A stretch of 64,000 bases of DNA from Escherichia coli (GTDB lineage: Bacteria > Pseudomonadota > Gammaproteobacteria > Enterobacterales > Enterobacteriaceae). Made by a program: the position numbers and the translations under genes. Where the stretch lies: NCBI RefSeq assembly GCF_017348835.2, contig NZ_CP071375.1; one strand, 5' to 3'. Position 1 is the first letter of the stretch. The number at the start of each line of letters is the position of its first letter. The notes below the pieces were generated by a model. That model was not told the origin of the DNA. It made no database searches and saw only the letters and a list, made by a program, of their open reading frames with translations. This document shows positions 46,584 to 49,500 of this stretch, one piece after another.

Positions 46584-49500
46584 TCAGAACGACCAGTTCA
46601 CACCAGCCACCGCGTTCCACGGGGATTCCACATCGGCACCGTTGCTATACCCCACCCCGAGATGCCCGCTTAACGTACTGCTGAATGAGGCTTTAATACC
46701 TGCCTGGTATATTCCACGTCTGCCCGACAAATCATTGACGAAATTACCGTCATTATTCACCTTCACCCGGTTATCATCGACAAATTCTTTGCGCACAGCC
46801 GCCTTCAGCCACGGCTCAACTTCCATACCGTTCCCCAGACGCATGTTGTAACTCAGCGTTGCACCCAGTTCACGATATATACTGCGGGTATCGACTGATT
46901 TCGATTCCATGCCATTGGATAAATGATATTCGGGGTTATCAGCGGTGAACCCCGTTAACGATGCATACGGCGTCAGGTTCCAGTTACCATCAGTAAATCG
47001 CATCCCGGTTTCAATGTGACCGCCCAGCCCGTTGCTGTGGTAACTGCCATTGGCGGCTCCACCGCTGCTCATTTTACCGGCTACGTTACTTTCAAAACGG
47101 TTCAGCTTCACGACACCGTCCAGATAGAAACCACTTTCATGTTCCCAACTGGCATAGCCGCCCAGAGAATAACTGCCCACACTGCCATGTCCTCCGCGAT
47201 CAAAACCGATATGTGAATGGGAATAACCCATAAAAGCGCCCAGCGTCGCAATCCCCTCAGGAATATCATTACGGCTGTCGATCCCCACTGTCATTCCGGT
47301 CAGCGTCTGCTCAAACCCGGCCCCCGCATCGGTGGTGACATTATTACGGGTGTTATACGTCGCCCCCCAGACATTATTGTTGTGTGAACTCGCTTTCATT
47401 ATGTTCAACCGCTCGCGAATACTGTTTAGCTCAGCATCAAATACCAACGGTAATGTTGCTGCCATATTGAGTACGGCTGCGGTAGAAGGCGTGATGCGTT
47501 TCTCCGGAACGGGTGTCGGCGTTGGCTCGGGAGTCGGGTCTGGTTTCGGATCCGGTTTTGGGTCTGGTTTTGGATCCGGCTTCGGATTTGGGTTGGGATT
47601 TGGGTTGGGATCCGGGTTGGGTTTGACATCATTGGTCAGGTTCCAGTTGCTGTTGCCATCGCTTTTCAGGACATACTCATAGGTCCCAAGATCAACGAAA
47701 CCGCCAGTATTGCCCAGCGAAAACGAAGCATCCCCTCCCCCTGTTTTCACCAGCGTCATCGCGTCGTCAGACTGAGGACTGACGCCGGTATCCTGAACAA
47801 AGATTTTAAAATTACCAGTGGCGTTGTTGCTGACGACCAGTTGATCACCGCGGGAGCCAGCAACGTTGGTATGCAGGTAGAAATTACCGCTACCGGAAAG
47901 TTCATTGGTTGTCAGCGTATTGTAGATACCGTTAGTTGTGGCAGGCGCTGCTGTTTGTGCTGATAAATAAACATCACCGTCGTTGAGTAGCAAACTGTTT
48001 ACTCTATATTCGCAGTTGCTGGTACCTGCACAGGAATTATTGCTGTTAAGCCAGACACTGCCCCGGCTGGCAGCCATCAGGTCGGCAAGCGTTGTATCGA
48101 CGCCATTTCCCAGAGTTAATGCCGCGCTATCGGTAATCCGGACCGCCCCTACGAGTTTAACTGGCGTAACATTATCCCGTGGCGTCATTAACGACAGGCT
48201 TCCTGTCGCGCCACTGACCGATGCATCCGCCAGCGTACCTGCGTAGACGATTGCCGTACCGCCAGCGACCTGGAGATCTTCTGCCCGGGCCAGAGCCTGA
48301 AACTCATCTTTTGACCGCCCAAGGGTATATTGCCCGCCAGAGTTAACCTTTGTAGCGGAGTCCTGACCCAGGTTTTGCATTGCACCACCCTTGCCAACCG
48401 TGGAGTAGCGAGCTTCGGTACCTGCTAATACCAATAAATTACCACCATTTTCCAGCAACATATTGGTCGCTAAATTTCCGGCAATGGAAAAGGTGCCGTA
48501 CTGGTGAGTACCGCTGATTTCAATACCGTTAGCTGTGCTCGTCTGGAGAGCGGCACCGCTGTTCTGGACGATATCTGTCGCTTTGCCATTATCATTGACT
48601 GTCAGCGTACCGCCTTCATTTATCGTTGTTTTTATTGCCTCACCGTTAGCCGAAACTGTTTGTATTCCGCCGTCGTTAATCGTTGTCTCATTCGCCACAC
48701 CCTCGACGATTTGTTCGCCGCCGGTGAGCGTCGTGCCTGTCGCAGTGGCTTTTATTTTGACGATCTCCCGTCCGCCCGTATTGACCTGTGTTTTGGCGGA
48801 AGTGGTGTCTGACTCCACGGTTAACACGCCGCCATTTGCCAGCAGGATATTGTTCGCCGCATCCTGCTCGATGCTGAACACGACGCCATCTGCGCGTGTC
48901 CCTGTGACACGCGTCGCCTTGGTGGTTGCAACCAACGCGCCCTGGCTACTCTGCTGTATCCCCGTTGCGCTGCCTTTCTCCCGCACATCGAGTGTGCCGC
49001 CGTCATTAAGCACCGAGTTTTCAGCCAGACCGCCCTCATTAACTACCTGTGAACCGCCATTAATAATGGAACCTTCCGCTGTCCCGTTTGCCATAATTTG
49101 TTGTAGGCCAGAGACGATATCGGTGTTGATTGCCTTACCATAACTCTGAACGGTTTGCGTGCCACCATTGATGTGTGTTTTATCTGTTGACCCACCATCA
49201 ACAATTTGTTCACCACTTTCGAAATTTGCCTCAGTGGCTAAACCATATACCGTTTGCTTGCCACCTTTGATATTTGCTTTATCAGAAGTGGCACTGGCAT
49301 ATATTGTTTGGGTGCCCGCACTATTAAGTACAGTGCCAACATCTTTTCCATAAACATCCATTTTGCCGTTGACATTAATAATCGTATCAACTGCCCGGGA
49401 ACCAGTGACGACTGTTAATGAGCCAGCGTTTTCCAGCACTACATTTTTAGCTTCTGAATTCCTGATGTAGAAAGCATCACCATAACTGTTGGTTCCTTCG

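What the first reader, a model, noticed from the sequence alone, without database searches (positions are those of the whole stretch)
47505..47628. Hexanucleotide tandem repeats encoding the Pro-rich autotransporter linker
About 120 bp of reiterated 6-bp units encode (K/N)P(D/N)P repeats between passenger and barrel. Because units are multiples of 3 bp, slippage would change linker length without frameshifting, so this is a candidate variable-number tandem repeat modulating how far the passenger projects from the surface.
Basis: partly seen in the sequence, partly recalled or inferred. Interest (0 to 1): 0.45.

Follow-up and report, generated by a model that had tools for sequence, protein, structure and literature searches.

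The report
Proline-rich spacer of the YpjA adhesin
This is the proline-rich spacer between the surface-exposed part and the membrane anchor of the known E. coli adhesin YpjA/EhaD; its length does differ between strains in whole 6-base steps, but only slightly and rarely, so it is an ordinary, slowly evolving repeat rather than an active length switch.

Summary
Window 47505-47624 (minus strand) encodes 20 consecutive X-Pro dipeptides, K1183-P1222 of the 1528-aa autotransporter YpjA/EhaD. They lie between the pertactin-like end of the passenger and the helix and barrel of the anchor.

The VNTR reading is only partly supported.
- **DNA repeat is degenerate.** No two neighbouring hexamers are identical. 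TRF finds periods 12 and 24 at 78-83% match, and no period 6. The periodicity is no stronger than the protein sequence alone imposes.
- **Three length classes.** Among 5,426 complete E. coli genomes, ypjA carries 20 XP (352 genomes, this window's type), 19 XP (1,310) or 18 XP (779).
- **Indels are unit gains or losses.** This allele equals the 18-XP type plus one 12-bp tandem duplication.
- **Length is nearly fixed within a class.** 176 of 180 sampled rows keep the class length. The exceptions found are a 6-bp deletion (2 genomes) and a 6-bp duplication (4 genomes).

Slippage therefore happens, in frame, but rarely, and the range is 36-40 residues. A paralogue at the ycgV locus, outside the window, carries a pure (NP)n array at the same position. 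Its linker ranges from 90 to 258 bp and varies between isolates with identical flanks.

Best reading: a passive, extended spacer. Interest is low.

The parts
47505..47624 (-). (XP)20 array, K1183-P1222 of YpjA/EhaD: KPNPDPNPNPNPNPKPDPKPDPKPDPKPDPTPEPTPTPVP. This is the Pro-rich spacer and is the finding itself.
   Evidence: Sequence and translation. TRF periods 12 and 24. AlphaFold2 gives pLDDT below 50 and no secondary structure for residues 117-155 of the C-terminal 461-aa piece, which corresponds to this array.
47584..47611 (-). Longest perfect DNA repeat in the array: ATCCCAACCCAA x2.3 (28 nt). It contains the 12-bp tandem duplication (AATCCC AACCCA) that separates this 20-XP allele from the 18-XP allele.
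   Evidence: Hexamer-by-hexamer comparison of the window with L003, L004 and L008. Longest-run calculation.
46584..51170 (-). ypjA/ehaD coding sequence (1528 aa plus stop), an AIDA-I-type (type Va) autotransporter adhesin.
   Evidence: ORF. RefSeq annotation of the 100% identical PE164 locus, 4587 bp, flanked by tRNA-Ile (ileY) and ssrA. Pfam AIDA x9, Pertactin and Autotransporter. NCBIfam TIGR01414.
47634..48002 (-). Pertactin-like C-terminal passenger (junction/autochaperone) domain, residues 1057-1179. It ends in the conserved VDLGTYEYxLxxxGxxxWxL motif just before the array.
   Evidence: Pfam PF03212, E = 4.8e-45. Match to pertactin 1dab residues 433-534. Beta strands 18-112 in the model. 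Conserved in alignment A1.
47397..47489 (-). Alpha-helical segment (residues about 1228-1258; ITPSTAAVLNMAATLPLVFDAELNSIRERLN) that follows the array and fills the barrel pore.
   Evidence: Helix 161-191 of the model with pLDDT 85-92. Nearly invariant motif across homologues.
46587..47372 (-). C-terminal 12-stranded beta-barrel translocator domain (residues about 1266-1528).
   Evidence: Pfam PF03797, residues 1267-1506. Strands 199-460 of the model. Matches to the Vag8 and BrkA barrels.

Best explanation
The segment encodes a 40-residue (X-Pro)20 spacer in the surface adhesin YpjA/EhaD. It sits between the last coils of the beta-helical passenger (the pertactin-like junction domain) and the alpha-helix that runs through the 12-stranded outer-membrane barrel. 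With proline at every second position it cannot form helix or sheet, so it most likely acts as an extended, stiff, protease-tolerant stalk that holds the passenger clear of the barrel and the inner LPS layer. This role is inferred, not shown.

At DNA level the array is an old, codon-scrambled 6/12-bp repeat. Replication slippage occasionally adds or removes one or two hexamers, always in frame. This has produced three long-lived length classes in E. coli (18, 19 and 20 XP) and a few sporadic +/-1-unit variants. The window carries the 20-XP class, which derives from the 18-XP class by one 12-bp tandem duplication.

The locus is a slow length polymorphism. It is neither a hypervariable nor a switching repeat, and the small length differences are probably close to neutral.
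For: **Anatomy**
- Pfam order is AIDA x9, Pertactin 1057-1179, Pro-rich 1177-1243, beta-domain 1267-1506.
- The AlphaFold2 model (mean pLDDT 83) shows beta strands, then a 39-residue unstructured stretch with pLDDT below 50 coinciding with the array, then helix 161-191, then a 12-strand barrel.

**Identity**
- 100% identical to ypjA of strain PE164, at the canonical ileY-ypjA-ssrA locus.

**Spacer character**
- In 15 aligned homologues the two flanking motifs are conserved, while the stretch between them runs from 0-2 residues (YejO-like proteins and a Klebsiella protein) to about 70 residues. Its composition varies but is usually Pro-rich.
- NCBIfam gives a weak, sub-threshold match of residues 1181-1225 to the Pro-rich spacer part of TonB, profile positions 70-118.
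- TibA is described as having a proline-rich domain at the same position (PMC3835316).

**Slow slippage**
- Class sizes are 352, 1,310 and 779 genomes, with length constant in 58/60, 58/60 and 60/60 sampled rows.
- The -6 variant (ACCAGA lost, KPDP to NP) occurs in 2 genomes from two laboratories, and the +6 variant (GACCCA duplicated) in 4 genomes.
- Every indel is a whole unit.
- There are no adjacent identical hexamers, and the DNA periodicity is fully explained by the peptide.
Against: - No experiment here or in the papers read shows what the linker does in YpjA.
- The extended conformation is inferred from composition and from low model confidence, which is not positive evidence for a polyproline-II helix.
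- Length constancy within classes comes from 60-row samples of ranked hit lists, not from a full census. Up to roughly 2-3% of a class could carry unseen indels.
- The strict conservation of Pro at every second position in all alleles shows selection on the pattern, so the linker is not merely junk. Some length-dependent function cannot be excluded.
- The sister gene at the ycgV locus shows that the same position can behave as a highly active VNTR.
Confidence: 0.72

Rival explanations
1. The array is an actively variable VNTR whose in-frame expansion and contraction tunes how far the YpjA passenger projects from the cell surface, giving populations heritable length diversity.
For: - Length does differ among strains, and only by whole 6- or 12-bp units.
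- Sporadic recent +6 and -6 events exist in otherwise identical backgrounds.
- The paralogue at the ycgV locus has linkers of 90-258 bp. Two sub-arrays, (AACCCA AATCCG)n with n = 4-8 and (AATCCA)m with m = 6-9, vary between porcine isolates with identical flanks.
Against: - In ypjA itself the range is only 18-20 XP.
- Length is fixed in at least about 97% of each haplotype class, including about 250 O157:H7-type genomes.
- Alleles accumulate SNPs without changing length.
- There are no perfect hexamer runs for slippage to act on.
- A change of 2-4 residues is at most about 1.2 nm on a stalk of about 12 nm, and some homologues function with no linker at all.
Confidence: 0.15
2. The Pro-rich array is a functional motif rather than a passive spacer. 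Candidates are an immunodominant or decoy epitope (as proposed for the PQP region of pertactin), a ligand-binding proline motif, or an element needed for secretion, for example to keep the first-exported segment unfolded.
For: - Pro at every second position is invariant in all alleles seen, while third codon positions and the X residues drift. This indicates purifying selection on the pattern.
- The segment is surface-exposed and adjacent to the barrel.
- Repeat-number typing of the pertactin GGXXP and PQP regions shows that such regions are polymorphic in another autotransporter (PMC12243275).
Against: - Close structural homologues with intact junction and barrel domains lack the linker entirely or carry unrelated acidic sequences. 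It is therefore not required for secretion in the family.
- No binding partner or antigenicity data for YpjA were found in the papers read.
Confidence: 0.1
3. The repeat matters at the nucleic-acid level or on the other strand, as a gene for the Gly-rich plus-strand ORF 47332-47682, an RNA element or a regulatory site.
For: A 116-aa GTG ORF exists on the plus strand across the repeat.
Against: - Its product is simply the mirror image of the repeat, (GSGF)n.
- It lies wholly antisense inside a gene supported by Pfam, NCBIfam, synteny and RefSeq annotation.
- Rfam finds only the tmRNA in 45800-52500.
Confidence: 0.02

Closest known systems
Proline-rich domain of TibA (ETEC self-associating autotransporter, AIDA-I family)
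   Same: A Pro-rich domain of about 50 residues (627-677) separates the junction region of the passenger from the membrane-embedded C-terminal domain (PMC3835316). This is the position the XP array occupies in YpjA. Both proteins belong to the same autotransporter group (PMC9289746).
   Different: The TibA sequence was not compared here. Nothing was established about length polymorphism in TibA. The YpjA array is a strict X-Pro alternation.
Repeat regions of Bordetella pertactin: region 1 (GGXXP)n and region 2 (PQP)n
   Same: An autotransporter passenger carries in-frame proline-containing repeats whose copy number differs between isolates and is used for typing (PMC12243275). The YpjA junction domain matches pertactin 1dab residues 433-534.
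   Different: The pertactin units are 15 and 9 bp rather than 6 or 12 bp. From my own knowledge, not tested here, the pertactin regions are loops or C-terminal segments of the passenger linked to immune selection. YpjA varies far less.
The YpjA paralogue at the ycgV locus (ymgJ-gene-minE; named ypjA by PGAP)
   Same: The C-terminal 750 bp is about 92-95% identical. The linker is at the identical position and ends in the same tail, (D/T)PTPEPTPTPVP.
   Different: Its linker is a nearly pure (NP)n array with perfect runs of 57 nt (period 6) and 98 nt (period 12), against 9 and 28 nt in ypjA. It ranges from 90 to 258 bp and varies among isolates with identical flanks. It is a live VNTR, whereas the ypjA array is a degenerate one.
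Pro-rich (EP)n(KP)n spacer of TonB
   Same: An alternating X-Pro array with charged X residues. NCBIfam's TonB model aligns its positions 70-118 to YpjA 1181-1225. From my own knowledge, this TonB region is regarded as an extended rigid spacer that tolerates deletion.
   Different: The score of 19.7 bits is far below the cut-off of 315, so this is compositional resemblance only. The protein, compartment (periplasm versus cell surface) and evolutionary origin all differ.

Membership tests
Type Va (classical) autotransporter, AIDA-I type | C-terminal 12-stranded beta-barrel translocator preceded by a pore-filling alpha-helix | tested here: met
   Pfam PF03797, E = 5e-46. TIGR01414, E = 3e-97. 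The AlphaFold2 model shows helix 161-191 followed by 12 strands with pLDDT around 90. PDB matches to the Vag8 and BrkA barrels.
Type Va (classical) autotransporter, AIDA-I type | Beta-helical passenger built of AIDA-type repeats, ending in a pertactin-like junction/autochaperone domain | tested here: met
   PF16168 AIDA in 9 stretches, E = 9e-138, and PF03212 Pertactin at 1057-1179. TIGR04415 repeats x8. Pertactin 1dab match.
Type Va (classical) autotransporter, AIDA-I type | N-terminal Sec signal peptide | tested here: inconclusive
   The sequence from ATG 51170 begins MNRTSPHYCRRSVLSLLISALIYAPPGMAAF, which is basic, then hydrophobic, then A-x-A-like. No signal-peptide predictor was available.
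YpjA/EhaD orthologue | Same gene at the same chromosomal locus as E. coli K-12 ypjA | tested here: met
   100% identical over 751 bp to the annotated ypjA of PE164, and 94.8% to K-12 ypjA. Neighbours are gab operon, ileY, ypjA, ssrA, smpB. The tmRNA lies at 46061-46423 and the tRNA at 54310-54385 in the window.
VNTR (variable-number tandem repeat) | Head-to-tail repeated DNA units | tested here: met
   TRF periods 12 and 24 at 78-83% match with low scores of 59-78. The array is degenerate, with no two identical adjacent hexamers.
VNTR (variable-number tandem repeat) | Copy number differs between strains through gain or loss of whole units | tested here: met
   18, 19 and 20 XP classes. The changes seen are a 12-bp duplication, a 6-bp insertion, a 6-bp duplication and a 6-bp deletion.
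Hypervariable repeat / contingency locus | High mutability: length heterogeneity within clones or closely related isolates | tested here: not met
   Length was constant in 58/60, 58/60 and 60/60 sampled rows of the three classes. The variants occur in 2 and 4 of 5,426 genomes. Within-culture heterogeneity cannot be tested here.
Hypervariable repeat / contingency locus | Repeat change switches expression on and off by frameshift or promoter spacing | tested here: not met
   Every change seen in the array is a multiple of 6 bp inside the coding sequence and keeps the frame.
TibA-type proline-rich domain | Pro-rich segment located between the junction region and the membrane-embedded domain | tested here: met
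   The position was shown by Pfam and the model. The definition comes from PMC3835316. Sequence homology to the TibA segment was not tested.
TonB | Whole-protein match to the TonB model | tested here: not met
   19.7 bits against a cut-off of 315, and only the Pro-rich part aligns.

The most novel reading that the evidence does not exclude
In the YpjA/YcgV adhesin pair, linker length is a selected trait: a stalk matched to the thickness of the O-antigen or capsule layer. The two paralogues would then represent two evolutionary states of the same device. One is a live (NP)n VNTR at the ycgV locus that explores lengths from about 15 to 43 dipeptides. The other is a frozen array in ypjA, stabilised against slippage by synonymous codon scrambling and K/D substitutions once a suitable length was reached. 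The observed period-6 DNA match falls slightly below the synonymous-resampling expectation, which is compatible with selection against repeat homogeneity but is far from proof.
Probability: 0.12. Interest if true: 0.5.

Novelty: new member of a known kind. Interest (0 to 1): 0.2.

Why it matters
It matters little for the window itself. The gene is a known, usually silent E. coli adhesin, and Pro-rich spacers and in-frame repeat polymorphisms in autotransporters are established.

The practical points are these:
- ypjA linker length (18, 19 or 20 XP) is a stable haplotype marker, not a fast typing marker.
- Annotation pipelines give the same name, ypjA, to a paralogue at the ycgV locus. That paralogue's linker is a hypervariable VNTR, which can confuse gene presence/absence and allele studies of the E. 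coli adhesiome.
- The pair offers a natural comparison of a degenerate and a homogeneous repeat encoding the same kind of spacer. This could be used to measure how codon scrambling suppresses slippage, and whether stalk length affects adhesin exposure through LPS or capsule.

Tried and rejected
- **Pooling of the two genes.** The first search and the (NP)n alleles at first looked like huge length variation in ypjA, from 114 to 252 bp. Annotated context showed the long pure-NP arrays belong to a shorter paralogue between ymgJ and minE, the ycgV locus. I separated the two genes.
- **TR01.** O157:H7 strain TR01 carries a full-length ypjA with an (NP)15-type linker. I tested whether this was a local gene-conversion tract. 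Its 45 differences from O157 ypjA are spread over the whole 1151 bp, it is closest to the K-12 type (97.0%), and it is unique among 5,426 genomes. It was left unexplained: a rare fourth haplotype, a recombinant or an assembly problem.
- **Protein search.** The search with the C-terminal 461 aa listed only proteins of about 800 aa or fewer, because of the candidate cap, so it could not serve as an allele census. It was used only for the family-wide linker comparison.
- **Literature.** No paper linked ypjA or ycgV to VNTR or MLVA. The generic E. coli MLVA papers read give no gene locations for CVN014 and the other loci, so I could not tell whether the ycgV-locus array is already a typing locus. 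PMC2631898 had no accessible text on PQP.
- **Other strand and RNA readings.** Both were rejected.
- **Technical misses.** One wrong reading frame and one minus-strand request to the repeat finder.
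Full report
**What is in the sequence**

Read on the minus strand, window 47505-47624 is 20 codon pairs of the form X-Pro. The peptide is KPNPDPNPNPNPNPKPDPKPDPKPDPKPDPTPEPTPTPVP. It lies in the long minus-strand ORF 46584..51299. In a genome that is 100% identical over the 751 bp tested, the annotated gene is 4587 bp. That puts the start at ATG 51170, gives a protein of 1528 aa, and makes the array K1183-P1222.

The last five are TPEPTPTPVP.

**How repetitive the DNA is**

The DNA is less repetitive than the peptide suggests.
- Tandem Repeats Finder reports no period-6 array. It finds two period-12 arrays (4.5 and 3.6 copies, 78% and 83% matches, scores 59 and 63) and one period-24 array (score 78).
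- No two neighbouring hexamers are identical.
- The longest perfect period-6 run is 9 nt and the longest period-12 run is 28 nt (47584-47611).
- The 20 proline codons are CCG x8, CCA x7 and CCC x5.
- I kept the peptide and redrew synonymous codons from the gene's own usage. The period-6 self-match was 0.60 +/- 0.02, against 0.56 observed, and 4860 of 5000 resamples reached the observed value.

The DNA periodicity is therefore entirely a consequence of the peptide. There is no sign of recent homogenisation. The array is still far from chance: 0.56 is the maximum for the gene, whose 120-bp windows average 0.27.

**What the gene is**

- Pfam finds nine AIDA repeats, a Pertactin domain (1057-1179), a sub-threshold compositional hit to procyclin PARP over 1177-1243, and the Autotransporter beta-domain (1267-1506).
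- NCBIfam adds the autotransporter barrel model and AIDA-I/Ag43-like passenger repeats.
- PDB sequence search matches the barrel to Vag8 and BrkA, and the segment before the array to the C-terminal part of pertactin and to the IgA1 protease and Hap passengers.
- In E. coli PE164 the identical gene is annotated ypjA (adhesin-like autotransporter YpjA/EhaD). It sits between tRNA-Ile (ileY) and ssrA/smpB. The window has the tmRNA at 46061-46423 and the tRNA at 54310-54385.
- YpjA/EhaD is grouped with the self-associating adhesins AIDA-I, TibA and Ag43 and is linked to biofilm formation. No structure or mechanism has been published (PMC9289746; PMC12547504).

**Where the array sits in the protein**

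I ran AlphaFold2 on the C-terminal 461 residues with a 15-sequence alignment (mean pLDDT 83, pTM 0.77). In order, the model gives:
- beta strands of the passenger end (residues 18-112);
- a stretch without secondary structure and with pLDDT below 50 (117-155), which is the XP array;
- a long helix (161-191);
- twelve barrel strands.

In an alignment of 15 homologues the motifs on either side are conserved: VDLGTYEYxL...W.L before the array and ITPSTAAVLNMAA..PLVFDAEL after it. The stretch between them is the most variable part. YejO-like E. coli proteins and a Klebsiella protein have 0-2 residues there. E. albertii relatives have 18-32 residues of XP. Other homologues have up to about 70 residues of Pro- and acid-rich sequence.

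The position is thus an insertion-tolerant spacer site in the family, and the linker is not needed for the fold or for secretion as such.

A 751-bp query around the array matched 2,556 of 5,426 complete E. coli genomes. Match spans were 751, 745 or 739 bp in an evenly spaced sample. Sequences fetched from representatives show that all the length differences lie in the array.

| Class | Example | XP units | Peptide |
|---|---|---|---|
| Window / O157:H7 type | this window | 20 | KPNPDPNPNPNPNPKPDPKPDPKPDPKPDPTPEPTPTPVP |
| K-12 type | K-12 | 19 | KPNPDPIPNPKPDPKPDPKPDPNPKPDPTPDPTPTPVP |
| Third type | KL53, MLI121 | 18 | (not written out) |

The window allele equals the 18-XP allele plus one 12-bp tandem duplication (AATCCC AACCCA). 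The K-12 allele has one extra AATCCA relative to the 18-XP allele, plus many synonymous differences.

I then searched with about 240-bp queries specific to each allele, under strict E-value limits.

| Class | Genomes | Identity bands | Sampled rows with class length |
|---|---|---|---|
| 20 XP (window type) | 352 | 252 at >=99% | 58 of 60 |
| 19 XP (K-12 type) | 1,310 | 1,267 at >=99% | 58 of 60 |
| 18 XP | 779 | 71 at >=99%, 708 at 95-99% | 60 of 60 |

The four exceptional rows were as follows.
- A 6-bp deletion in an O157-type background (AAACCAGACCCG to AACCCG, KPDP to NP). A search with that allele shows it in 2 genomes, from Korea and Japan.
- A perfect duplication of one hexamer (GACCCA) in the K-12-type allele, present in 4 genomes.
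- One IS3-disrupted copy.
- One partial match.

Alleles that differ from the window by 3-5 point changes in 246 bp, such as O145:H28, keep the same length.

The conclusions from this test are:
- In-frame slippage by whole units really occurs here.
- The three lengths are old haplotypes.
- New length variants are rare, a fraction of a percent to at most a few percent per class.
- The total range is 36-40 residues.

**A complication that turned into a control**

My first searches also returned pure (NP)n linkers of up to 240 bp. Annotated context shows that these belong to a shorter paralogue of about 1,110-1,150 aa between ymgJ and minE, the ycgV locus. NCBI's pipeline also names it ypjA. Its last 750 bp are about 92-95% identical to ypjA.

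The strain closest to the window has both genes. Its ypjA carries the mixed array and its ycgV-locus gene carries (NP)15 TPDPTPTPVP.

In the paralogue the array reads NV-a-c-b-d-d-(ab)n-a-c-c-b-a-(c)m-DPTPEPTPTPVP, where a = AACCCA, b = AATCCG, c = AATCCA and d = AACCCG. Five porcine isolates and one human isolate had n = 4-8 and m = 6-9, with flanks identical in five of the six and one flank mismatch in the sixth. Match spans in two searches imply linkers from 90 to 258 bp, always in 6-bp steps. Perfect runs reach 57 nt at period 6 and 98 nt at period 12.

This is what an active VNTR at this position looks like. The ypjA array does not behave that way.

**How it most likely works**

*Shown.* The array is a surface-side linker between the folded passenger end and the pore helix. 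Its X-Pro alternation is strictly conserved in all alleles, while the X residues and third codon positions drift. Its length is tolerant across the family.

*Inferred.* A peptide with Pro at every second residue cannot form helix or sheet and tends to be extended. If it were fully polyproline-II-like, at about 0.31 nm per residue (my own knowledge), 40 residues would span about 12 nm. The 18-20 XP alleles would then differ by about 1.2 nm at most. This suggests a stalk that lifts the passenger off the barrel and through the inner LPS layer, as proposed for other Pro-rich spacers.

NCBIfam's TonB model aligns its Pro-rich spacer to exactly this segment, but far below threshold, so this is compositional resemblance only. 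The closest described analogue is the proline-rich domain of TibA (627-677), between the junction and the membrane domain (PMC3835316). The closest precedent for strain-to-strain repeat-number variation in an autotransporter is pertactin's GGXXP and PQP regions, which are used for typing (PMC12243275).

**Rivals**

It fails on rate and amplitude in this gene.
- A specific epitope, ligand or secretion role is not excluded, but it is weakened by homologues that lack the linker.
- A function on the plus strand is rejected. The 116-aa ORF there is only the mirror (GSGF)n of the repeat, and Rfam finds only the tmRNA nearby.

**Novelty and verdict**

The gene, the type of linker and the phenomenon are all known kinds. 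I found no paper describing the ypjA or ycgV linkers as length-polymorphic, so the census is new but unsurprising.

Interest is 0.2. The more interesting object is the hypervariable (NP)n array of the ycgV-locus paralogue, which lies outside this window.

Noticed in passing
Outside the window: L009 9150-9335 (MLI121), L011 about 6150-6280 (PE164), L001 and L014-L017: A shorter YpjA paralogue at the ycgV locus (ymgJ-gene-minE), also named ypjA by PGAP, carries a pure (NP)n linker at the same position. Two sub-arrays, (AACCCA AATCCG)n and (AATCCA)m, vary independently between isolates with identical flanks. Linker length ranges from 90 to 258 bp across genomes. I could not establish whether it is an existing MLVA locus.
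   Followed up: partly
L005 (E. coli O157:H7 TR01, NZ_CP033605.1 3603849-3604999): A full-length ypjA (4587 bp) carries an (NP)15-type linker of the same length as the O157 allele. The allele is unique among 5,426 genomes. Its 45 differences from O157 ypjA are spread over 1151 bp, and it is closest to the K-12 type. It may be a rare fourth haplotype, a recombinant or an assembly artefact.
   Followed up: partly
window 46061-46423 (+) and 46584 (stop of ypjA): ssrA (tmRNA, tag ANDENYALAA) lies 160 bp beyond the ypjA stop, with no annotated feature between them in the matching PE164 locus. From my own knowledge, K-12 has the CP4-57 prophage inserted at ssrA between these genes; that was not checked here.
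   Followed up: partly
window about 51235-51354 and 51578-51745 (coordinates converted from L007): A 39-codon ORF annotated as 'ATPase' or hypothetical lies directly upstream of ypjA. A near-identical small ORF lies upstream of the ycgV-locus paralogue, so the duplication includes the upstream region. A recombinase gene fragment (pseudogene) lies just beyond it, suggesting the remnant of a mobile element next to ileY.
   Followed up: no
window 54310-54385 (-): ARAGORN calls this tRNA-Met (anticodon CAT), whereas RefSeq annotates the same gene as tRNA-Ile. This is the usual ambiguity for ileX/ileY-type tRNAs, whose CAT anticodon is modified to read AUA (the modification is from my own knowledge).
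   Followed up: no
window 51171-51299 (-): The mechanical ORF starts at GTG 51299, 43 codons upstream of the annotated ATG 51170. The extension (VNTIHLRCLFRMNPLVWCLWADVAAELRLLKRYSVFTFQRMKF) does not look like part of a signal peptide, so the ATG start is preferred.
   Followed up: no
L012 (strain 27_141091), L004 (BEC1-S17-ESBL-09), L017 (K_EC180): ypjA and its paralogue are often inactivated. An IS3-family element is inserted a few dozen bases upstream of the linker in one O157-type genome. Frameshift pseudogenes are annotated in the other two. Only about 47% of complete E. coli genomes match the region at all.
   Followed up: no
window 18592-18667 (-): A tRNA-Glu (TTC) lies here. It may sit in an rRNA operon spacer, but this was not examined.
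   Followed up: no
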